Assembly (NCBI GenBank): GCA_013361955.1
Contig: JABFXA010000207.1
Coordinates: 1,942 to 65,941, forward strand
DNA from: Nocardioidaceae bacterium
Lineage (GTDB): Bacteria > Actinomycetota > Actinomycetes > Propionibacteriales > Nocardioidaceae
Direction of reading: 5' to 3'
Length of the DNA: 64,000 nt
Shown here: positions 54,077-64,000 of the stretch, in pieces
How the letters are laid out: every line of letters begins with the position of its first letter
How positions within the stretch are numbered: the first letter of the stretch is position 1
The notes under the pieces: model-generated
Seen by the model: only the letters and a program-made list of their open reading frames with translations
The model's database searches: none
Told to the model about the DNA's origin: nothing
Translations under genes and position numbers: made by a program

Positions 54077-54962
54077 TCAAGCAGTGAGTGGAAGCGTCCG
54101 TGAGACGGTGATGCTGTTCCGGGTGGTCACATAGCCGAGGTGTTCGTTGAGGCGACGCATCGGCGCGTTGCCGACTTGTGTCCACGTGTAGATCTCTTGC
54201 ACTCCGTGGTGAGCCGCCCAATGGAGGGTTCGGCGCTTGAGATGTGACGCGATGCCGTGGCCGCGCCAGCTGCGGCGGACTGCGGTCAACGCGTTCTCGG
54301 CGCGTTCGGGTCGGTCTGCATCGCGGTTGAGACCGGCACAGCCGATCACCTCGTCGTCGCTCAAGGCCAGGAACATCGGGTCGCCGTACCACGATGTCCT
54401 CCACTGCTCGGCGCTGATCTGCAGCGGCGTGTACAGCGCGAAGTCGGCAAGCACCTCCTGGCCGAACGTCTCGAAAGAGGCAGCCCACAGGTCAGGGCGT
54501 TCGCTTGCCTCGATCACGTCTACGCCGGCCGGCAGAGTGCCCGGGGCCGGCTCGTCGCCCACCACGCGTACCTGTTCGACCTCGCGGTCGACCTCGACGA
54601 ACCCGTACCGCTCTGCGAATGCCAGGGATCCGTCGTCGTCCACACCGGCCACGACCTTGGACAGGCCCAGGTCGCTGCAGTGCTCGGCCAGGACACGCAG
54701 GAGCGCTGACCCCATGCCCCTGCGGCGATGCTCGGGTCGGACGCGTGGGGCGACGAATCCCGCCCCGGTGGTGTCAGACCGGTCCGCGATGCCGGAACCC
54801 ACCACGTCACCGTCCGTGACTGCGAGCAGCAGCAGTCGATCCCCCGAGTCCTGCTCACGCATCTCCGCGACGGTGAGGCAGCGCTCCTCTGGCAAGACGG
54901 GCGAGCCGGACGGCTCGCCACGCTTCGTACTCCTCGTCGCTGCGGCAGACCACCAGCTGCAT
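54077..54962 (-). pseudogene. tandem GNAT acetyltransferase with a +1 frameshift near 54900
   Basis: MQLVVCRSDEEYEAWRAVRLA (from ATG 54962) continues as VLPEERCLTVAE in another frame; two GNAT motifs (RRRGMG, RGHGIA). Confidence 0.75.
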
Positions 54963-55371
54963 AGACGGCAATGTAGTCGGCCGACCAGCCCTTCCAGGGT
55001 CAGCACGACGCGCGCGCTCGGCTTGTTGATGTCGTCACCTCGTTCGCACCTGCACGATCGACCCCTGGGCTGTGCCCGAGCGGCCTCGGCACACGGGGGC
55101 GAGCCGGCGTGCGGGGCGCGGCGAGCGATCAGGCGAAGGTCTCAATCTGAGCTAGCTGTGGGAACCGCCCCGATCGACACCGACCACTACACCAACCTGC
55201 TCGCAGCCTCCGTCATCGAGACCGTCCGCTGGCGACGCGAGTACGAAGCCGCCAAGCACCAACATGCCGACCGACTCGGCGACGCCGGCGCCGCGTTCTC
55301 GGCCCGGTGGTCCCCGTCTGGTCCCCACCGTCCGAGCCTCGCGGTGGTACGACCGGCCCGTGGAGACGACA

Positions 55372-55406
55372 GAGGGGCCTGACCTGGACGTCCAGGTCGG
55401 ACCCTC
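55372..55406. terminator. hairpin directly downstream of the tRNA fragment
   Basis: Perfect palindrome gacctggacgtccaggtc (55381-55398) flanked by gaggg/ccctc. Confidence 0.6.
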
Positions 55407-55408
55407 GC

Positions 55409-55452
55409 GGTCGGGCTGACAGGATTTGAACCTGCGACCCCTTGACCCCCAG
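55409..55452 (-). other. 3' fragment of tRNA-Pro(GGG), probable att site (not an intact tRNA)
   Basis: Minus strand ctggggg-tcaag-gggtc-gcagg-ttcaaat-cctgt-cagcccg-acc: anticodon loop, T-arm and acceptor 3' strand; D-arm and 5' half absent. Confidence 0.9.
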
Positions 55453-55767: not shown

Positions 55768-57420
55768 TCAGATCCCAAGCCTCTTGGCGACCTCGGCGCC
55801 CCCGCCTCTGCGCACCACCTCGGGGTCGCCCACGACGACGAGCTCATCGGTGGCCCGCGACATCCCGACGTACAGCCGCTCGCGCGACCGGTCACGGCTG
55901 CCGTCCTCGTTAACGCAGAGCACCACGGCGGGGGGCTCCAAGCCCTTGCACCCAAGGACATGTCCGTAGAAGACGTCGGCGTCGTCGAAGAACGTCACCC
56001 AGTACCCGTCTTGGTCATGGAAGTCGGTCCGCTCGACCTGCACGGGGTGGCCGCGGCCCGTGGTCAGGAGGCAGACGCTCCCGGCTTTCCATCCGGCGTC
56101 GAGCAGTCCGTCGACCTCATCGTCCGCCGTCGCGATGGCGTCCTCGGTAGTGCAGGGCACGAAGCGCACCGCGGGCCCATCGCCGCCCCGCGCGTACATC
56201 CGGCTCGGCGCGAGCGGGCCGAAGGTCTGGTGGATCTGACGGGTGTTGCGCAGATTGTGGTCCAGCACCAGCGGCACCAGCTGCACCGGCGGGCGTCCAA
56301 AGCGGGCGAAGATCCGCTGGTTCTCGTCGGAGAAGACGTAGAGCCCTCCGGCAGTCTCATCCTTCAACGCCCGCAGCACCGGCCGCCACCAGGACTCCGC
56401 GAAGTCCTGCGCCTCGTCGACCACCACCGAGTCGTAGCGCTTGCCCTCCGGCAAGTCCTCGGCCAAGCGCGCCATGATGTCGGGAAGCTCAGACTCCCAA
56501 AACTCGCTGTTGGTGCGGTCCCCGTCTGGCGCGCCCCACTGACGACCGAACTCGTGGAAGGTGCCCACGAACGCAGGGCGGTCCTTGCGGTGCCAGGTCG
56601 CCACCTGACGCTTCAGATGCTCCGCGAGCCCGATCGAGTAGCAAAGCAGCGCGACGCGCTCCGACCTCCGGTCCGCACGTCCCCGAGTCAGCTCCTTGGC
56701 CTGCTGCAGGGCTAGGACGGTCTTGCCGCTCCCCGCACCGCCGCGGACCTCGACTCGGTTCAGCAACCGCGTGACCTTGAGGATCATCGCCTGCTCCTGG
56801 GTGAGCCGGTCTGCCGTCGACGCCCGCTCGGCCGCCTCGGCGTTGACGTCGTACGCCGTGGGCAGGCGCCCGGTCAGGATGTCGCCGATCGTCTCTACGT
56901 CCTCGTGCGTCGGGGCCTGCTTCCCCTGTCGCGCCCTGGCGGCGTTCTCGCGGATCCGCGCCGGCAGGTCGCCCTGGTCGTGCCGGTCGTGCAGCGACCA
57001 TCGCGGGCAGTCTGGTCCCGCGTCCTGGTCCGGGAACTCCGAGAAGGGGATGACCACGGCATGGCCCCACGCAATGTGGTTCCGATTGTTCCACCGGGGA
57101 TCGTGCGCCACGTAGTCGCGGAGCGCGTACTTCGTGGTGCGCACCTGCTGGACCGGGTCGATCTGCCTGGAGCGACCTCGGTGCTGCTGCCACCACCCCT
57201 GCTCGTCGCGCCAGACGCTGCCGCCCTTGACCTCCACCACGACCGCACCTACCTCCGGCATCAACACGACGAGGTCCGCTTCGTGGTCCTTGACCTCGTC
57301 GGTCAGCCGCAGGTTCGCGATGAGCACGTCGTCTGGACCGAGTCCGTCGCGCATCCGCTCCCACACCTCGCGCTCCGACGCGGTGGTAAACACGGGGTCG
57401 TCGGGAATCAGCCGCACCAT
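55768..57420 (-). CDS. NERD nuclease fused to SF1 (UvrD-like) helicase/ATPase (550 aa)
   Basis: HEADLVVL...VEVKGG; GGAGSGKT; VVDEAQD; NLRN; KGLE; LYVGMSRA. Confidence 0.9.
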   Translation of the reverse strand: MVRLIPDDPVFTTASEREVWERMRDGLGPDDVLIANLRLTDEVKDHEADLVVLMPEVGAVVVEVKGGSVWRDEQGWWQQHRGRSRQIDPVQQVRTTKYALRDYVAHDPRWNNRNHIAWGHAVVIPFSEFPDQDAGPDCPRWSLHDRHDQGDLPARIRENAARARQGKQAPTHEDVETIGDILTGRLPTAYDVNAEAAERASTADRLTQEQAMILKVTRLLNRVEVRGGAGSGKTVLALQQAKELTRGRADRRSERVALLCYSIGLAEHLKRQVATWHRKDRPAFVGTFHEFGRQWGAPDGDRTNSEFWESELPDIMARLAEDLPEGKRYDSVVVDEAQDFAESWWRPVLRALKDETAGGLYVFSDENQRIFARFGRPPVQLVPLVLDHNLRNTRQIHQTFGPLAPSRMYARGGDGPAVRFVPCTTEDAIATADDEVDGLLDAGWKAGSVCLLTTGRGHPVQVERTDFHDQDGYWVTFFDDADVFYGHVLGCKGLEPPAVVLCVNEDGSRDRSRERLYVGMSRATDELVVVGDPEVVRRGGGAEVAKRLGI

Positions 57421-57606
57421 GCCCAGCACCCTGCCACGCGGCGCCGGCCGCGACAGCCGAACTCCAGCGTTGCCCCGGCACACCACGGGTCGAACCGGGC
57501 CGGTGTGTGCGAGGAATCCGACCGTTCGCTCCGGAGGGCCGCGCCGCGGGTGCGCTGCTGGTTCCCCACGATTCGAGGCAGGAGCGCGGCAAGCAGCGAC
57601 CACGAC

Positions 57607-58671
57607 CTAGCCGGCGGCACCGCCCGGCAGCCGGATCTCGGAGTTCCACCGCATCCTCATCGTGTCCGGGCCGGCCGGGACGAGGTCGAGGACGGCCACC
57701 TCATCCCCCGGCGTCGGTGTTGAGCATCCCTGAACGGTTACGATTCTGATCAGCTCCGGCCCACCGGCCTCGATCTTGAAGGACCGGCTGTCAGGCTGCT
57801 CCGCGACGATGCCCCGCAAGTCGCGCTCTGACGTCGCATCCGAGGCCCAGTACGGCCAGCACACCGTCCGGAACGCGCATGTCCGGCACGCCGTCTGTGC
57901 GGGATTCGCGGGGACGTTTCCAGCAGCGACGGCGTCGTTGAACCCAGCGATCGCCTGCTGGGCCTCCTGCACCGCGCTGCTCACGGCCACGCTGTCGATC
58001 TGGAACGACGTCTCGTTTCCGGTGGCGGACTCGATGACGCCGACGGCGGGCAGTTGGCCGCAGGCGGCATCCACCAGGTGCGCGTACAGCAGGAGCTGGC
58101 GGCGCTGACCAGGCTGGACGCCTGCCTGGTGGACCCCGGACTTGAGGTCGATGACGCGCAATTGGCCGTCCCGCACCTCAACCCGGTCGGGGGTGCCGAA
58201 CACGCCGGCGTCTGGGTCCTTCAACTTCCGTTCGATCCAGGGGAAACCGGGTGCGTGCTCCGGAGCGGCCGCCGAAGCCGGAGCAAGGTCCGGCCAGGTC
58301 GCCGACAGCTTCCGGAGCGTGCGGACCCGAGTTGCCACCAGACCGTCCCACTGAGCGACCGGGGGCACCGGCCGACCGGGCCAGGCCTTGGCGACCTTCC
58401 GCACCTGCTCGGCGAGGAGGCCCTCCCACTCCGCTTCGAGCCAGGATCGTCGGTCCTGACCGACTGGTGGGTGCTTTGTCGCGGCGATCTCGTGCAGGCC
58501 GTGGGCCACGACGCCCAAGGCGGTCCGCGGGCTCGGCTTGCTGAGGCCCCGGGTCGAGGGGTCACGCTGGTAGGCGAGCTTGCGGGGACAGCGCTCGTAT
58601 GCGTTCAGCGCGCTCGGCGAGACCATCTCAAGCGGGTCCGCCGCCGGGGGAACCCAGGCCAGAAGGGTCAT
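57607..58671 (-). CDS. PD-(D/E)XK RecB/Cas4-like nuclease with four conserved Cys (354 aa)
   Basis: SPSAL..YERCPR, G...H, GTPDRV...VIDLKSG, QLLLYA, CRTCAFRTVC; ATGA overlap with the helicase stop. Confidence 0.88.
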   Translation of the reverse strand: MTLLAWVPPAADPLEMVSPSALNAYERCPRKLAYQRDPSTRGLSKPSPRTALGVVAHGLHEIAATKHPPVGQDRRSWLEAEWEGLLAEQVRKVAKAWPGRPVPPVAQWDGLVATRVRTLRKLSATWPDLAPASAAAPEHAPGFPWIERKLKDPDAGVFGTPDRVEVRDGQLRVIDLKSGVHQAGVQPGQRRQLLLYAHLVDAACGQLPAVGVIESATGNETSFQIDSVAVSSAVQEAQQAIAGFNDAVAAGNVPANPAQTACRTCAFRTVCWPYWASDATSERDLRGIVAEQPDSRSFKIEAGGPELIRIVTVQGCSTPTPGDEVAVLDLVPAGPDTMRMRWNSEIRLPGGAAG

Positions 58672-61600
58672 GCCAGCCGCCGGATCAGGCCGATCGGGCG
58701 CCGCAGCGCCTCGAACACGTCGCTCTGGGCAACCGAGGAGGACATTCCCGCAAGCTCGTCTAGCGCGGTGATCTGCTCCTCGACGGCGCGGTCCTCCGAC
58801 CGCCACCACAGCGGGTGTCCCACCAAGACGGATTTGCCGGTCCCGGTGTTGTGGAGGTAGGAGATGCCGTCGGTGGTGGCGCCGGCCTTCAGGCTGATCA
58901 GGCCGGTCGCGGCAATCCCTTCGGCGGCGCGCTGGCCGAGTTCCATCCACCGGGCCAGTGCGAGCGGCTCGTCGGCAAGCAGGTCGAGCATGTCGAGGGC
59001 AAGGCGCCAGTCCAGCAGTCCGTGCAGCCGGCTGTTGTCGTAGGACCGCAGACAGTCCAGGCAGGAGGAATTGCAGTCCGCGTGCGCCTTCTCGGACCAC
59101 CGGTCGCGCAGCGACAGCCGAGTGTCGGAGAGCATCCGCTCGAAGTTGTGCTCGGCCCCGATCTCCGCGGCATAGCCGGCGCCGTTGTCCAGCGCATCGG
59201 CGAGGAAGACCTGCATCGAGCCGTCACCTTGCGGGTGCAGGCCGAAGACCAGCTCTTGCGGATCGATATCGAGCAGCTGTTTCGCCCCGCGACGCAGCAC
59301 CTCGGCCAGGGAGCGGTAGGCGGCCAGCCCTGCCGGCACCTTCTCCGGCGAGTAGGGGACCAGACCACCGGGCGCGTGCGCGCCGTTGAGCCCGACCGTC
59401 AGCGCGTCGGTGGTGCGCAGTTCGCCGATCGCGATCTGCCTGGAGCCGACAAGGCTGTTAGGGGGCCAGGCCTTGAGGTCCGCGAAGAGCTCGGGGTCTG
59501 CCGCCAGCCACGACCCGTAGTCCTGGCCGATGTCGAAGAGCCTCCCGTTGTTGTCGTTGACCTGGACCAGCCGTGCCTGACCGTAGCTGCTGAGTCGGGC
59601 TCCGCGAACCGTCGCGTCCGTGTCCGGGTCGCCGTCAACTGAGATCGTCTGCGAGCCCGCGTTGGCGGACTGGTCCTCGTCGCCGTCGTAGTCAACCTCC
59701 TGGTAGGTGGTCCTGAACCCGCGAGGCTGGTGCATCGGGACGATCCGAAGGCCGGAGAGACAGATCGAGCACACTGGCTCGACGGCGTCCACGATGCAGG
59801 CGCCACACTCGTCGCACAGCCCGATGAGGATCTCGGGGCCGAGCGGGTCGACCGGCTTCATCCCCTTGTAGTCGGGCGTCCAGTCCGCGAAGCCCGCCAC
59901 GGTGTGCACGGCACCGTCCCGGACGATCTTGGCGCCGGGCGCGCACCTCGACCCCGCCTGGCTCAGGGGCCGGTCCGAGACCGTCACCCCGTCGAGGTCC
60001 TCCAACTTGGACGGACGCTTCCGAACCAGCCGGCGTACGCGGGTCGGGAAGCCGAACATGGGCAGGACGCCGTAGGTCGCCAGCAGCTCGCTGAGCTCGT
60101 CGGTCAGCCCGGAGTCGCGGGCCACCGCCGCATCGATGTCGGCAACGAGGCCGCCGGTGGCTAGCCAGTCACGGATCGCTGTGACCGCAGCCGGTTCGAG
60201 CCCGGTGAAGGCGCAGAACCGCTCGACCACCTGACCCAGCGCGGGCGAGGCAAGTGCGGTGGCGATCTCCGCGCGTCGGTCAGGCCATCCAGAGCTGGGC
60301 CCGAAGACGCCGTGGATGCTGTTGGCGGTCCACTCCGGCGGCTCACCGAGCGACTGGAACGCCAGCCGGAGCGCTTCGGCTGCGACCACCCGGCGCACGA
60401 TGCTAACTCGATTGAGGTCGAGGAACGGCTGCGGCGGGTCGTCGCCGGTCATCCTGCGGGGCGCACGGAAGTAGTCGTCGTCGTGCGATCGGTCCCGGCA
60501 GACCGTCACCGCGTAGGAGAAGATCTGTCCAGACCGGCCGGCGCGGCCCACGCGTTGCTGGTAGTTGAACCGTTGCGGAGGCATGTTGGCCATGACCGTG
60601 GAGCGGAGCGAGCCGATGTCGACTCCGACCTCCATCGTGGTGGTCACGCTCAGCACGTCGAGCGGCACCGTCAGTGCGTTCTCGGCGGGGGCCGGCAGCA
60701 GCACCTCCTTGAACACCCGCGCTCGGCGGCGCTGTTCGCTCAATGGCTTGGTCTGACCGGTGAGCTCGGCAGCGGCGAGGCGCCGCGGCTGCTGGCGTGA
60801 TAGCCAGCCGTAGTAGTCGCCCTCGTCGTCGGTCGCGTCGGCGTCCACCTTGACCAGCGCTGGGCGGTTGCAGCCGACGTTGGCGCAGACGCCCGCCGCG
60901 GCGTGCCCGTGCATGAACCCGCAGACGTCGCAGCGCCAGCGTTCGGTGCCGAGCGGGACCAGTGTCAGTGGCGATGAGAGGGAGGCGAGGTCCAGGAGCC
61001 AGTCGCTGGCGATCCCAGTCGACTTCAGGAGGCGTTTGACGTCGTCGGTGACGTCGCCGAGGTCCAGGCCGTGCACCTCGGCGATCGTCTTGAGGTAGCC
61101 GGCCACGCTCCGCGGGACGTTGGTGGATGGCTTGGCGTCGGTGCCGGCCCACCGGTTGCGGATGCCCAGTATCCGGATCACTGCCGCCAGAATCTGGTCC
61201 CGGACGGTGGGGTCGTGGACGATCCCCGAGGATGCCGGCGGCGCCGCGAAGTACGCGATGCCGACGGACTCCAGATCCCGTCCCGCCCTGCCGAAGAGGC
61301 CGCCGGCAAGTGCCTGCACCAGCTTCTCGGCCTGCATCGCTGCCTGCGTCTCCCGAGGGCCGCCGAGCGGAAGCGGCATCCATAGGTCGGGAGCCGGAGG
61401 CGCGAACGCCTTCCACCAGGGACTGGCGTCCTGGTTGACGGCCGCTGACGGCCCGGTGCCACCGGGCGGGATCCCGAGCCGGACCAGCCGGTCGCAGATC
61501 TCGTGCCGCAGCTCGGGCCAGCCGATCCGGACCTCCTCGTCGGCGACGAACGCAGCCTCGACCGCCTCCTGCTCTGTGTCGTCGAGTGGCACATACGCCT

Positions 61601-64000
61601 GCTTCCTCAACAGTTCGAGGGCGTCGGGGTGTGCCTCCTTGAACGTGGTGAACGCCGCTTGCTCGGCCAGCGTGAGCGTCTCCAGCGCAACTCCGCGGTC
61701 GACGATGTCGCGCAGTGAGGGGCGCTGGGCGGTCAGCACCTGCTGGGTCATCTGCCTGATCACGTCGCGGTAGTGGTTCAGCGCGATCCCAGCAGCCGTC
61801 CGGGCGGCGTCGTCTCGGCTGTCGGTGAAGACGATGGTGCGCGACTCGCTGGCCTTGTCGCCGAGGCTCCGCACCAGTTGCGAGAGGTAGAGCTGGGTGG
61901 ACTGTGCGGCGCCGGAGGTGTGCGCTCGGATGGGGCTGCGGACCGTGCCGGCGAAGAACTTCTCGCCCGGGTTGTACCCGCGTGAGTCGCACCGGGGGCA
62001 CCGGTCGGGCAGCGCCGGTATCCGCTGCCGCTCCCCCAGGTCGGCCTCGACCTTCATGACCCAGCCGTCGAGGGTGTCCCCGGCGGCAGTGACCAGGCCG
62101 GTGCCGTGGTCCAGGCTGGCTGGGGCGAAGGCGAAGGAGGCCTCCTTCTTGCTGCCCGGGACCTTCTTCGCCCAGGAGGGGTCCGGCTGGACGGGCTTCT
62201 GTCCGGGCCAGAACCAGACGAACTCGTCGTGGGAGCGTCGGAAGATCGGGGCGATGTCCGAGGCGACCTCGCCGACGTTCGCCGATGCGATGACGACGCC
62301 GTCGGGCTCGCCGTGCTCGACCGAGGTCCGCTCGACGACGTGACCCCCGAGGCTGATGTCGCCGCAGGAGAAGCAGTAGAGGAGCTCGAGGACCCTGGCG
62401 CCGCAGTCCGAGCAGCTGAGGGTCGGGATCCCGTAGAGCTTGCCGACCCGGCGGCCTTCGCGTGCGTCTTCGGCGACACCTGAGCACTGCGGATCGCAGC
62501 AGGCCCACATCCCGCGCATGGTCCGGACGAACTGGTGTGCCCGCAGGGGGATGGTGCCGCTGAGGTCTGACGCTCCCGCCAGCGAGGTGAGCGCAGCCGC
62601 CAGGCCCTGCAGGCCGTCATCGGGGGCTCCGAACAGCCGTTCTGCGATCAGCGAGGACTCGGTGGCCCGGACGCGACCGGACTCGGGATCGACGCAGGCA
62701 GCGGCGATCTGCTCGGAGACGATGCTCGCCGCGGGCGCGGTCCCTACGAGCAGGGCGGCCCGGTCGAGCCCGGAGAGCGGCGTAATCGCCCGCGGGGCTC
62801 CCGCAGTGACGTGGAAGGACGAGCCGTCCAGCCCGAAGAACTGCTCGAGGAAGTCCCGGCCGCCGCTCTCACCGGACAGCGATGCACTAGTGGCGATGCA
62901 CCGCAGCTGCGGGGAGTCCGGGGCCAGCCCGAGCCGGTTGAGCAGGTTCCGGACGACCATCGCCACCTCGCTGCCCTGGGTTCCCCGGTACAGGTGCAGC
63001 TCATCGACGATGAGGGTGAAGACGTGGTCCGCCGAGGCGTCCAGCCACGCCCGGGTCTGGCTGAACAGCGGGTCCTCGAACGCGCGCATCAGCATCGCGT
63101 TCAGCATCGAGTAGTTCGTCACCAGGACGTCCGGCGGCGTCTCCACCATGTCCCAGCGGACCAGCATCTCGTGGGCTCGCGGGTCGGGGAACTGCGCCAG
63201 GTCGCCCTCGCTGACGCTCGCGTCGACGAGGCGCCGGAACTCGGATGTCTGCTCCTCCAGGTTCGCCACCAGCTCGGCGAAGCCGTTGCCGCGGCCGTCG
63301 GCGGGGCGCCGCGAGGTTCCGAGGGTGACGCCGGTGTAGCGACCGAACCAGAGTGGCTGACCCGGCAGCGCCGCGCCGATCCGCCGGGCCGCCCGACGGA
63401 GCCTGGTCATCTGGTCCTCGACGAGCGCGTTGGTCGGGTAGAGGATCATCGACCGAACGGCCGGCATCCGCGTCTCCGGCTTGCGGATCGGGCGCCATCG
63501 ACGCGGGTGGGGCTTGTCGTTCCACCACAGGTCGGGCGGCGGTTGGGCGGACCAGGTCCTGGCCTCTTCGACCAGCCGGAGCAGCATCGGCAGCAGGAAG
63601 CTCTCGGTCTTGCCGGAGCCGGTTCCGGAGGTGACCACAACGTTGCGCCCGGCTTGTGTGCCGCCGCGGAAGTGGCAAGCGACCGCCTCGGCCTGGTGGG
63701 CACGGAGCCTCACGGGGTGGTCTGGGTCGGTGAAGTCCCCGAAGAGCGCGCGGCCGACGATCTCGGCCGACTCCGCTGAGACTCCCGCGGCAGCGGCCGT
63801 GGCCAGCAGGTCGACGGTCGCGTCATAGGGCAGCACCGGCTCGAGCAGGCACTCGCTGCGCAGGTTGCCGTCGGCTCGCAGCAGTCCGCGCCGTTCGTCC
63901 GACAGCCTGGTGTCCCGCAGCCAGTACTGGGTGTCGATGTAGCGGAGATAGGCCGAGGCGAGGTCGTCGCGCAGCGTCAGGGGCGTCAGGGGCGTGGTCT
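58668..64000 (-). CDS. very large SF2 DEAD/DEAH helicase with DUF1998-type C-terminus (DruE/YprA-like); start lies beyond the window
   Basis: RAHQ, SGTGSGKTESF, YPTNAL, TNYSML, DELH, SAS, VFTDSR, TTTMEVGVDIG, QQRVGRAGR, CNSSCLDCLRSYDN; frame stays open to 64000 (LRDDLASAYLRYIDTQYWLRD). Confidence 0.92.
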   Translation of the reverse strand, partial: TTPLTPLTLRDDLASAYLRYIDTQYWLRDTRLSDERRGLLRADGNLRSECLLEPVLPYDATVDLLATAAAAGVSAESAEIVGRALFGDFTDPDHPVRLRAHQAEAVACHFRGGTQAGRNVVVTSGTGSGKTESFLLPMLLRLVEEARTWSAQPPPDLWWNDKPHPRRWRPIRKPETRMPAVRSMILYPTNALVEDQMTRLRRAARRIGAALPGQPLWFGRYTGVTLGTSRRPADGRGNGFAELVANLEEQTSEFRRLVDASVSEGDLAQFPDPRAHEMLVRWDMVETPPDVLVTNYSMLNAMLMRAFEDPLFSQTRAWLDASADHVFTLIVDELHLYRGTQGSEVAMVVRNLLNRLGLAPDSPQLRCIATSASLSGESGGRDFLEQFFGLDGSSFHVTAGAPRAITPLSGLDRAALLVGTAPAASIVSEQIAAACVDPESGRVRATESSLIAERLFGAPDDGLQGLAAALTSLAGASDLSGTIPLRAHQFVRTMRGMWACCDPQCSGVAEDAREGRRVGKLYGIPTLSCSDCGARVLELLYCFSCGDISLGGHVVERTSVEHGEPDGVVIASANVGEVASDIAPIFRRSHDEFVWFWPGQKPVQPDPSWAKKVPGSKKEASFAFAPASLDHGTGLVTAAGDTLDGWVMKVEADLGERQRIPALPDRCPRCDSRGYNPGEKFFAGTVRSPIRAHTSGAAQSTQLYLSQLVRSLGDKASESRTIVFTDSRDDAARTAAGIALNHYRDVIRQMTQQVLTAQRPSLRDIVDRGVALETLTLAEQAAFTTFKEAHPDALELLRKQAYVPLDDTEQEAVEAAFVADEEVRIGWPELRHEICDRLVRLGIPPGGTGPSAAVNQDASPWWKAFAPPAPDLWMPLPLGGPRETQAAMQAEKLVQALAGGLFGRAGRDLESVGIAYFAAPPASSGIVHDPTVRDQILAAVIRILGIRNRWAGTDAKPSTNVPRSVAGYLKTIAEVHGLDLGDVTDDVKRLLKSTGIASDWLLDLASLSSPLTLVPLGTERWRCDVCGFMHGHAAAGVCANVGCNRPALVKVDADATDDEGDYYGWLSRQQPRRLAAAELTGQTKPLSEQRRRARVFKEVLLPAPAENALTVPLDVLSVTTTMEVGVDIGSLRSTVMANMPPQRFNYQQRVGRAGRSGQIFSYAVTVCRDRSHDDDYFRAPRRMTGDDPPQPFLDLNRVSIVRRVVAAEALRLAFQSLGEPPEWTANSIHGVFGPSSGWPDRRAEIATALASPALGQVVERFCAFTGLEPAAVTAIRDWLATGGLVADIDAAVARDSGLTDELSELLATYGVLPMFGFPTRVRRLVRKRPSKLEDLDGVTVSDRPLSQAGSRCAPGAKIVRDGAVHTVAGFADWTPDYKGMKPVDPLGPEILIGLCDECGACIVDAVEPVCSICLSGLRIVPMHQPRGFRTTYQEVDYDGDEDQSANAGSQTISVDGDPDTDATVRGARLSSYGQARLVQVNDNNGRLFDIGQDYGSWLAADPELFADLKAWPPNSLVGSRQIAIGELRTTDALTVGLNGAHAPGGLVPYSPEKVPAGLAAYRSLAEVLRRGAKQLLDIDPQELVFGLHPQGDGSMQVFLADALDNGAGYAAEIGAEHNFERMLSDTRLSLRDRWSEKAHADCNSSCLDCLRSYDNSRLHGLLDWRLALDMLDLLADEPLALARWMELGQRAAEGIAATGLISLKAGATTDGISYLHNTGTGKSVLVGHPLWWRSEDRAVEEQITALDELAGMSSSVAQSDVFEALRRPIGLIRRLA

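What the first reader, a model, noticed from the sequence alone, without database searches (positions are those of the whole stretch)
57607..64000. DruE/YprA-like giant helicase translationally coupled to a 4-Cys Cas4/RecB-like nuclease: candidate new defence module
Seen: a >1776-aa SF2 helicase with several CxxC clusters, a long insertion between motif IV (VFTDSR) and motifs V/VI, and a DUF1998-type CxxxCxxCL..Y.N tail. Its TGA overlaps (ATGA) the start of a PD-(D/E)XK nuclease with C...CxxCxxxxxC ligands. Known: DUF1998 (YprA/MrfA-type) helicases are core to Druantia (DruE), DISARM (DrmA/B) and Dpd, and Bacillus MrfA works with an exonuclease in crosslink repair. I do not recall a PD-(D/E)XK partner directly downstream among the standard Druantia components. 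Inference: a Druantia-like variant with a dedicated unwind-and-cut nuclease, carried as island cargo.
Basis: partly seen in the sequence, partly recalled or inferred. Interest (0 to 1): 0.85.

Follow-up and report, generated by a model that had tools for sequence, protein, structure and literature searches.

The report
Druantia type II operon with DruK nuclease
The giant helicase and its coupled Cas4-like nuclease are real, but they are the DruE and DruK genes of an already catalogued anti-phage system (Druantia type II) on a tRNA-inserted island, so this is a further example of a known system and not a new defence module.

Summary
On the minus strand a 1778-aa SF2/DUF1998 helicase (window 58668 to 64004, starting 4 nt past the window) ends in an ATGA overlap with a 354-aa PD-(D/E)XK nuclease (57607-58671) that has four invariant cysteines.

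The "new module" reading does not hold. PADLOC-DB v2 matches the helicase end to end as DruE2 (1668 bits) and the nuclease as DruK (192 bits, E 4e-57). The gene directly upstream, outside the window, is DruF2.

In every related locus examined (about 20), DruK follows DruE directly and DruF precedes it. A DruM-type cytosine methylase lies within about 10 kb in 16 of 18 evaluable loci. Here the contig ends 200 nt upstream of DruF, so DruM cannot be seen.

The system is rare: 2 of 201 genomes of the family and 6 of 401 of the phylum. It sits on an island bounded by a tRNA-Pro(GGG) 3' fragment.

Structure prediction shows DruK as a Cas4/Dna2-type Fe-S nuclease with a C-terminal OB fold. It is probably the effector nuclease that this DruE lacks.

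No paper searched discusses DruK, so its role is untested, but the architecture is catalogued. DruF carries a 1-nt frameshift that I could not check against reads.

The parts
58668..64000 (-). druE: giant YprA/MrfA-type SF2 helicase, 1778 aa. Its true start is at window-equivalent 64004, 4 nt past the window end.
   Evidence: PADLOC DruE2 PDLC00015 scores 1668 bits over residues 5-1775. Pfam finds DEAD, Helicase_C and MZB. Motifs and Cys clusters were located. The start was read in contig locus L005. The nearest solved chains are 9wae_A (481 bits), the type III-A DruE 9tu7_Y (145 bits) and MrfA 6znp (28 bits).
57607..58671 (-). druK: Cas4/Dna2-type PD-(D/E)XK nuclease, 354 aa, with four Fe-S-type cysteines and a C-terminal OB fold. 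Its ATG overlaps the druE TGA (ATGA).
   Evidence: PADLOC DruK PDLC00060 scores 192 bits, E 3.7e-57. Pfam PDDEXK_1 scores 76.8 bits. Invariant residues are C28/C262/C265/C271, D162, D175-x-K177 and Q192-x3-Y196. The AF2 model has pLDDT 92.5. Foldseek hits ACE1 (9iac), Dna2 (5ean), Cas4 (7mi5, 8d3l), MGME1, RecE and AddAB; IF1-type OB folds appear among the weaker matches and most plausibly correspond to the beta-rich C-terminal residues 285-340 of the model.
55768..57420 (-). NERD nuclease domain fused to a UvrD-like SF1 helicase. It is co-oriented with and directly downstream of druK. The first possible start is GTG 57603; the likely start is ATG 57420 or GTG 57429. It is a frequent neighbour rather than a fixed operon member.
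   Evidence: Pfam finds NERD, UvrD-helicase and UvrD_C_2. PADLOC gives RTasNERD-Hel at 110 bits and C3a187 'NERD+UvrD' at 87 bits. A homologue lies near the cassette in 5 related loci, in varying positions.
55409..55452 (-). 3' 44 nt of a tRNA-Pro(GGG), from the anticodon loop to the acceptor end. It marks the island boundary. The native downstream flank continues to about 55280.
   Evidence: It is identical to the 3' part of the intact tRNA-Pro(GGG) of a congener (L043 7840-7915), and about 130 nt of flank is conserved. ARAGORN finds no tRNA in the window.

Best explanation
The finding is the 3' two-thirds of a Druantia type II-family anti-phage operon. The order on the minus strand is druF (fused DruF-DruG/DruL form, outside the window), then druE, then druK.

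The operon lies on an island inserted into a tRNA-Pro(GGG) gene of a Nocardioides-like actinobacterium (MAG). The island also carries a NERD-UvrD gene.

What is shown:
- family membership of all three proteins;
- strict DruF-DruE-DruK order in all relatives examined;
- tight coupling (6-nt gap between druF and druE, ATGA overlap between druE and druK);
- an intact catalytic set and Fe-S cysteine set in DruK;
- a rare, patchy distribution.

Inferred mechanism:
1. A linked C5 cytosine methylase (DruM) marks host DNA. It is present in 16 of 18 relatives and not visible here.
2. DruF acts as sensor or adaptor.
3. DruE loads on free ends or ssDNA-dsDNA junctions of unmarked phage DNA and unwinds it. 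This is by analogy with type III DruE and MrfA.
4. DruK is made in step with DruE. It threads the displaced single strand through its Dna2/Cas4-like Fe-S nuclease domain, helped by its OB fold, and degrades it.

On this reading DruK supplies in trans the nuclease that type III DruE carries in cis as a PLD domain. The terminal Vsr-like domain of type I/II DruE is predicted to have lost that activity.
For: Family membership:
- PADLOC gives DruE2 1668 bits, DruK 192 bits and DruF2 838 + 303 bits.
- In relatives, the five L010 genes match DruM2, DruF2 (two genes, the second also DruL4), DruE2 and DruK.
- The N. dokdonensis methylase matches DruM2 PDLC00034 at 721 bits.

Gene context:
- DruK is directly after DruE, with DruF before it wherever the contig reaches that far upstream, in L007-L011, L013-L028, L044 and L045.
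- All 4 of 4 DruE-bearing genomes in a 401-genome phylum sample have DruK directly adjacent.
- A C5 methylase lies within about 10 kb in 16 of 18 evaluable loci.

DruK:
- Active-site and Cys residues are invariant.
- The fold is Cas4/Dna2 plus OB.

DruE:
- The C-terminal alignment shows no conserved D...(D/E)xK.
- Bell et al. 2025 predict an inactive Vsr domain in type I/II DruE.
- Type III DruE is a helicase-nuclease acting on ssDNA-dsDNA junctions (abstracts).

Mobility:
- Prevalence is 2/201 (family) and 6/401 (phylum).
- The island has a tRNA boundary, and an integrase follows DruK in N. mesophilus.
Against: - No DruM is visible here. The contig ends 200 nt upstream of druF, and no C5 methylase was found anywhere in the 90%-complete assembly.
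- druF is split by a 1-nt deletion, so this copy may be inactive, or the assembly may be wrong.
- I found no report in the searched papers that type II Druantia has been tested experimentally.
- No experiment or paper addresses DruK, so the unwind-and-cut step is inference.
- The inactive-Vsr status of this DruE's terminal domain could not be confirmed by fold search. Only MrfA matched.
- Two relatives (L009, L025) have no methylase within 10 kb.
Confidence: 0.88

Rival explanations
1. A MrfAB-like DNA-repair pair: a housekeeping YprA/MrfA helicase working with a nuclease on crosslinks, with no role in defence.
For: The helicase shares the DUF1998/MZB domain, and its C-terminal part folds like MrfA (6znp).
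Against: - MrfA matches at only 28 bits, against 1668 bits for DruE2.
- TIGR03817 scores 72 bits against a cut-off of 874.
- The partner is PD-(D/E)XK, not the MrfB-type 3'-5' exonuclease that Bell et al. describe.
- The pair is present in only 2 of 201 genomes of the family and sits on a tRNA-inserted island.
- A methylase is linked in relatives.
Confidence: 0.03
2. The nuclease is an independent gene that only happens to abut the helicase: a CRISPR Cas4 or a stand-alone recombination nuclease of the AddB/AdnA type.
For: There are Cas4 profile hits (TIGR00372 at 46 bits; PADLOC Cas4 at 51 bits) and weak AdnAB and Cas4 sequence matches in the PDB.
Against: - TIGR00372 is below its cut-off of 65.
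- No cas1, cas2 or other cas gene was among the neighbours scanned.
- The DruK model scores far higher, at 192 bits.
- Every one of about 20 homologues whose context was read lies directly after DruE, often with a 4-nt overlap.
Confidence: 0.03
3. This copy is a decaying remnant: a Druantia operon that has lost its methylase and carries a broken druF, and so no longer works.
For: - A 1-nt deletion in a Pro codon splits druF into 241-aa and 730-aa frames.
- No C5 methylase is found in the assembly.
Against: - Apart from that one base, druF is intact and 82-86% identical to N. dokdonensis across both reading-frame segments.
- druE and druK are intact.
- The genome is a fragmented MAG (478 contigs, 90% complete), so a consensus error and an unassembled methylase are both plausible.
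- This rival concerns only the state of this copy, not what the locus is.
Confidence: 0.3

Closest known systems
Druantia type II (DruM-DruF-DruG-DruE; Doron et al. 2018 as summarised in PMC8565338 and PMC10273834; PADLOC-DB v2 models DruM2, DruF2, DruE2, DruK)
   Same: - DruE2, DruF2 and DruK give full-length profile matches.
- Close relatives carry DruM2.
- A relative (L010) has the split DruF/DruG layout with Dcm and Vsr upstream.
   Different: - DruF and DruG are fused into one protein of about 1016 aa.
- A DruK nuclease is always present, although the published four-gene definition does not list it.
- DruM is not visible in this contig.
- The PADLOC paper found canonical type II only in Proteobacteria, whereas this clade is actinobacterial.
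Druantia type IV (DruF-DruL-DruE; Payne et al. 2021, PMC8565338)
   Same: - DruE4 scores 1312 bits.
- The C-terminal third of the fused DruF matches DruL4 (55 bits, residues 493-724 of the C-terminal frame).
   Different: - The DruE2 and DruF2 models score higher than DruE4 and DruF4.
- DruL is not a separate gene here.
- Relatives have DruM, which type IV is defined as lacking.
Druantia type III (DruH-DruE; 2026 preprints 10.64898/2026.05.13.724313, 10.64898/2026.05.12.724681, 10.64898/2026.05.13.724758)
   Same: It has a homologous giant helicase (9tu7_Y at 145 bits), and its logic is likewise helicase plus nuclease acting on ssDNA-containing phage DNA.
   Different: - Type III DruE carries its own PLD nuclease domain and pairs with the exonuclease DruH.
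- Here the nuclease is a separate Cas4/Dna2-type protein, the partner is DruF, and a methylase is linked.
Cas4 family nucleases, including Argonaute-associated ACE1 (9iac), and the Dna2 nuclease domain (5ean)
   Same: - The fold matches.
- The four-Cys Fe-S site is present.
- The D...DxK...QxxxY catalytic set is present.
   Different: - DruK has an extra C-terminal OB domain.
- There is no CRISPR context.
- It scores below the TIGR00372 cut-off.

Membership tests
Druantia type II (PADLOC / Doron) | Giant DruE helicase of the type II clade (SF2 core plus DUF1998/MZB) | tested here: met
   PDLC00015 DruE2 scores 1668 bits over residues 5-1775. It outscores DruE4 (1312 bits), DruE1 (528 bits) and DruE3 (333 bits). 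Pfam finds MZB.
Druantia type II (PADLOC / Doron) | DruF (and DruG) proteins of unknown function encoded directly upstream of DruE | tested here: met
   Two frames in L005 match DruF2 PDLC00023 at positions 2-228 and 271-1010 of 1011 (303 and 838 bits). The gap to druE is 6 nt. This is the fused form and it is split by a 1-nt frameshift.
Druantia type II (PADLOC / Doron) | DruM C5 cytosine methyltransferase in the locus | tested here: inconclusive
   The contig ends 200 nt upstream of druF. No C5 methylase is found in the assembly. One is present within about 10 kb in 16 of 18 relatives, and the N. dokdonensis one matches DruM2 at 721 bits.
Druantia type II (PADLOC / Doron) | Protection against phage | not testable with these tools
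   This needs an experiment. I found no type II test in the papers searched.
DruK (PADLOC-DB v2 accessory model) | PD-(D/E)XK nuclease encoded directly after DruE | tested here: met
   PDLC00060 scores 192 bits, E 3.7e-57. There is an ATGA overlap with druE. The same position is seen in all relatives examined.
Druantia type IV (PADLOC) | Separate DruL gene; no DruM or DruG | tested here: not met
   The DruL4-like region is the C-terminal part of the fused DruF (55 bits). Relatives carry DruM2.
CRISPR Cas4 | Passes the TIGR00372 cut-off and lies beside cas1/cas2 | tested here: not met
   It scores 46.4 bits against a cut-off of 65. The neighbours are druE and a NERD-UvrD gene, and no cas genes were found.
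MrfAB repair system | MrfA-equivalent helicase paired with an MrfB 3'-5' exonuclease | tested here: not met
   6znp matches at 28 bits. TIGR03817 scores 72 bits against a cut-off of 874. The partner has a Cas4/Dna2 fold.
DISARM / Dpd | DrmA/DrmB or DpdJ helicase with a PLD nuclease | tested here: not met
   DrmA scores 31 bits and DpdJ 51 bits, both over short local stretches only. No PLD protein was found.

The most novel reading that the evidence does not exclude
In the actinobacterial branch of Druantia type II, DruK is not an optional accessory. It is the obligate effector nuclease and forms a stoichiometric unwind-and-cut machine with DruE, taking the place of a decayed Vsr-like domain in DruE. 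No paper in the searched library describes this.

In the Nocardioides clade a NERD-UvrD helicase-nuclease may be a further functional partner.
Probability: 0.5. Interest if true: 0.45.

Novelty: new member of a known kind. Interest (0 to 1): 0.25.

Why it matters
It matters little as a discovery, because the gene set is already modelled in a public defence-gene database.

The useful residue is this. Type II Druantia appears experimentally untouched, and the published definitions omit DruK. Yet in this clade DruK accompanied DruE in every locus examined, is translationally coupled to it, and keeps a complete Cas4/Dna2-type active site and Fe-S site.

That makes DruK the obvious candidate for the missing effector of type I/II-like Druantia. 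The complete loci in cultured Nocardioides dokdonensis and N. mesophilus are ready-made material for testing this.

Tried and rejected
- **DruM in this genome:** PF00145 found only a weak partial hit on contig C20. A home-built C5-methylase HMM run over all six-frame ORFs of the assembly found none.
- **Other island end:** no second copy of the 44-nt tRNA fragment exists, and no tRNA-Pro gene is in the assembly at all. A T-arm match at the start of contig C376 belongs to a different tRNA.
- **Upstream region:** the last 400 nt of the contig match relatives only across the druF start.
- **Empty site in congeners:** only the GNAT gene (54077-55006) is syntenic. The flanks differ, so no clean empty site was found.
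- **Vsr-like domain of DruE:** a fold search of the C-terminal 470 aa returned only MrfA.
- **Plasmids:** no DruK homologue at E <= 1e-10.
- **Promoter and terminator scan between druK and the NERD-UvrD gene:** nothing found.
- **Literature:** no paper mentions DruK. The PADLOC paper and its supplements do not mention it either.
- **Other families:** MrfAB, CRISPR Cas4, DISARM and Dpd membership were considered and rejected (see the membership table).


Full report
**1. The observation**

The window has about 71% G+C. It is contig C292:1942-65941 of a 478-contig genome that is 90% complete.

On the minus strand an open frame runs from the window end down to a TGA at 58668-58670. In the contig it starts at ATG (MKTTPL...), four bases beyond the window, which gives 1778 aa.

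The helicase features are all there:
- SF2 motifs GSGKT (129), DELH (334), TSAS (372), VFTDSR (725), TMEVGVD (1123) and QRVGRAGR (1150);
- about 390 residues between motifs IV and V;
- seven CxxC pairs;
- the tail C1644-x3-C-x2-C-LRSYDN, which Pfam calls MZB/DUF1998.

The TGA overlaps the ATG of a 354-aa gene (57607-58671) as ATGA. That protein matches PDDEXK_1 (76.8 bits) and Cas_Cas4.

**2. What it is**

PADLOC-DB v2.0.0 matches both proteins:
- the helicase end to end as DruE2 (PDLC00015, 1668 bits, residues 5-1775);
- the nuclease as DruK, 'PD-(D/E)XK nuclease superfamily' (PDLC00060, 192 bits, E 3.7e-57).

The 3.3 kb of contig beyond the window (L005) carries two further minus-strand frames. 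They end six bases before the druE start. Both match one model, DruF2 PDLC00023, at positions 2-228 and 271-1010 of 1011.

These two frames are one gene split by a single missing base in a Pro codon. The sequence here is AGC CC- TGC where relatives have AAC CCG TGC. Apart from that base the gene is intact and 82-86% identical to the Nocardioides dokdonensis orthologue across both reading-frame segments.

The contig stops about 200 nt upstream of druF.

**3. Relatives**

The DruK protein has 81 word-level homologues, mostly from Nocardioides and other Actinomycetota. A profile search finds 481 clusters (at 50% identity) with E <= 1e-30.

I read the gene context of about 20 distinct loci. In every one DruK lies directly after a DruE-sized helicase, often with the same 4-nt overlap. 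Wherever the contig reaches that far upstream, DruF comes before the helicase. DruF is fused (about 1016 aa) in most loci and split (475 + 555 aa) in L010.

PADLOC labels the five L010 genes DruM2, DruF2 (N-terminal half), DruF2 (C-terminal half, also DruL4), DruE2 and DruK.

A C5 cytosine methylase lies within about 10 kb in 16 of 18 evaluable loci. Its position varies:
- divergent upstream in N. mesophilus;
- 1.4-4.4 kb upstream and co-directional in N. dokdonensis, a Nocardioides MAG and L015;
- downstream in others.

The N. dokdonensis enzyme matches DruM2 PDLC00034 at 721 bits.

In a 401-genome sample of the phylum, four genomes have a DruE homologue at E <= 1e-60, and all four have DruK immediately downstream.

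The locus is therefore a Druantia type II-family system whose nuclease gene is already modelled in the database. In this window's genome no methylase is assembled. With the contig ending where it does, presence or absence of DruM cannot be decided.

**4. Literature**

- The PADLOC paper (PMC8565338) defines type IV as DruF + DruL + DruE without DruM and DruG. It does not mention DruK in the text or in the held supplements.
- PMC10273834 describes type II as four genes.
- No paper in the library holds the word DruK together with Druantia.
- Bell et al. 2025 (10.1101/2025.09.15.676423) group Druantia I and II as 'Type IV CoCoNuT'. They predict that the C-terminal Vsr-type nuclease domain of these DruE proteins is inactive. 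They note an inactivated CnuB (McrB-like GTPase) homologue in these operons, and for type II a CnuB homologue with an extended coiled-coil region.
- The 2026 preprints on type III show DruE as a helicase-nuclease acting on ssDNA-dsDNA junctions, with DruH as exonuclease or sensor.
- A 2024 preprint reports host m6A methylation linked to type I.

**5. The nuclease**

In a 33-sequence alignment these residues are invariant:
- C28, C262, C265 and C271;
- D162;
- D175-x-K177;
- Q192-x3-Y196;
- W342.

The AlphaFold2 model is confident (pLDDT 92.5, pTM 0.88). Foldseek against the PDB returns, in order:
- the Argonaute-associated Cas4-family protein ACE1 (9iac);
- the Dna2 nuclease domain (5ean);
- Cas4 in Cas4-Cas1-Cas2 complexes (7mi5, 8d3l);
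- RecE, MGME1 and, further down the list, AddAB.

IF1-type OB folds are among the weaker hits; the tool does not report which query residues they cover, and I assign them to the beta-rich C-terminal domain (residues 285-340).

DruK is thus an apparently active Cas4/Dna2-class Fe-S nuclease with an added ssDNA-binding-type OB domain.

**6. The helicase C-terminus**

An alignment of the last 470 residues from 12 loci shows the invariant DUF1998 cysteines. After them comes a terminal domain of roughly 95 residues (about the last 95 residues of the 470, secondary structure) with an alpha-beta-beta-beta-alpha-beta pattern.

This domain has no conserved D...(D/E)xK. From my own recollection of the Vsr motif, the position that would hold the catalytic Asp is Gly, Cys or Ala ('VLVGHPLW').

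A fold search of the fragment (pLDDT 77) returned only MrfA, for the OB-DUF1998 part. The 'inactive Vsr' claim is therefore consistent with what I see, but it is not confirmed here.

**7. Most likely mechanism (inferred)**

1. DruM marks host cytosines.
2. DruF acts as sensor or adaptor.
3. DruE loads on ends or junctions of unmarked phage DNA and unwinds it.
4. DruK, made in step with DruE through the overlapping stop and start, degrades the displaced strand.

On this reading DruK supplies in trans the nuclease that type III DruE carries in cis. The sequence-level facts are shown. Every functional step is inference.

**8. Island context**

At 55409-55452 (minus strand) lie the last 44 nt of a tRNA-Pro(GGG), from the anticodon loop to the acceptor end. 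About 130 nt of its native downstream flank follow.

Both align to the intact tRNA-Pro(GGG) and flank of a congener. The tRNA 5' half is replaced by the island.

ARAGORN finds no tRNA in the window and no tRNA-Pro anywhere in the assembly. The other island end could not be located.

Other evidence for mobility:
- N. mesophilus has an integrase directly after DruK.
- DruK occurs in 2 of 201 genomes of the family and in 6 of 401 of the phylum. Those six are in six different genera.
- The flanking genes differ between loci.

'Island cargo' is supported.

**9. The neighbour**

Directly downstream of druK is a NERD + UvrD-like SF1 helicase gene (55768 to about 57420). Homologues are found:
- adjacent downstream in N. 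dokdonensis and a Nocardioides MAG;
- just upstream of druF, on the methylase side, in L015;
- 5 kb downstream in Arthrobacter sp. NEB 688;
- divergent upstream in L023.

It is absent in most other loci. It is a recurrent neighbour, not a fixed component.

**10. Rivals**

- **MrfAB-type repair** is rejected. MrfA matches at 28 bits, TIGR03817 scores 72 bits against a cut-off of 874, the partner has the wrong nuclease fold, and the locus is rare and island-borne.
- **CRISPR Cas4** is rejected. It is below the TIGR00372 cut-off, there are no cas neighbours, and it is always next to DruE.
- **Decaying copy.** Whether this copy is functional is open, because of the frameshift and the missing methylase.

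**11. Earlier notes of this scan**

Earlier AI notes of this scan reached the same 'Druantia II/IV with DruK' reading in other genomes, including Bacteroidota. I treat them as agreement, not as evidence.

**12. Verdict**

This is a new member of a known, catalogued kind. Interest is low to moderate. The untested role of DruK is the one point worth an experiment.

Noticed in passing
outside the window: contig C292 about 68,267-68,276 (L005 4267-4276, minus strand): druF is split by a 1-nt deletion in a Pro codon: AGC CC- TGC here against AAC CCG TGC in N. dokdonensis. The rest of the gene is intact. It may be a real recent inactivation or a MAG consensus error.
   Followed up: partly
window 55768-57603 (minus): A NERD + UvrD-like SF1 helicase gene lies directly after druK. 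A homologue lies near the Druantia cassette in five relatives, in different positions: adjacent downstream, just upstream of druF (on the methylase side), 5 kb away, or divergent upstream. This suggests a recurrent partner or a co-travelling defence gene.
   Followed up: partly
window 55280-55452 (minus): A tRNA-Pro(GGG) 3' 44-nt fragment and its native flank mark one island boundary. The whole assembly contains no tRNA-Pro gene of any anticodon, so the reconstituted tRNA and the other island end are probably in unassembled sequence.
   Followed up: yes
window 57607-57820 (C-terminal third of druK): DruK carries a conserved C-terminal OB-fold domain (residues about 285-340, invariant W342). 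The weaker Foldseek matches include IF1-type OB folds. It is not part of canonical Cas4 and probably binds ssDNA.
   Followed up: partly
L010 1-1415; L045 1-1141: In relatives the Druantia methylase often travels with a T:G-mismatch repair gene: Vsr in L010 and an HhH-GPD glycosylase in L045. This would be expected if the system makes 5-methylcytosine.
   Followed up: no
window 54077-55006 (minus) and flanks: The GNAT acetyltransferase gene is the only gene of this neighbourhood that is conserved (83-85% DNA identity) in congeners. Both of its flanks differ, so the chromosomal region next to the island is itself variable.
   Followed up: partly
L009 11200-18911 (Arthrobacter sp. NEB 688): Downstream of that genome's DruF-DruE-DruK lie WYL proteins, a SIR2_2 gene, NERD-UvrD and DUF6308. 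This looks like a dense defence island and has no C5 methylase within 10 kb.
   Followed up: no
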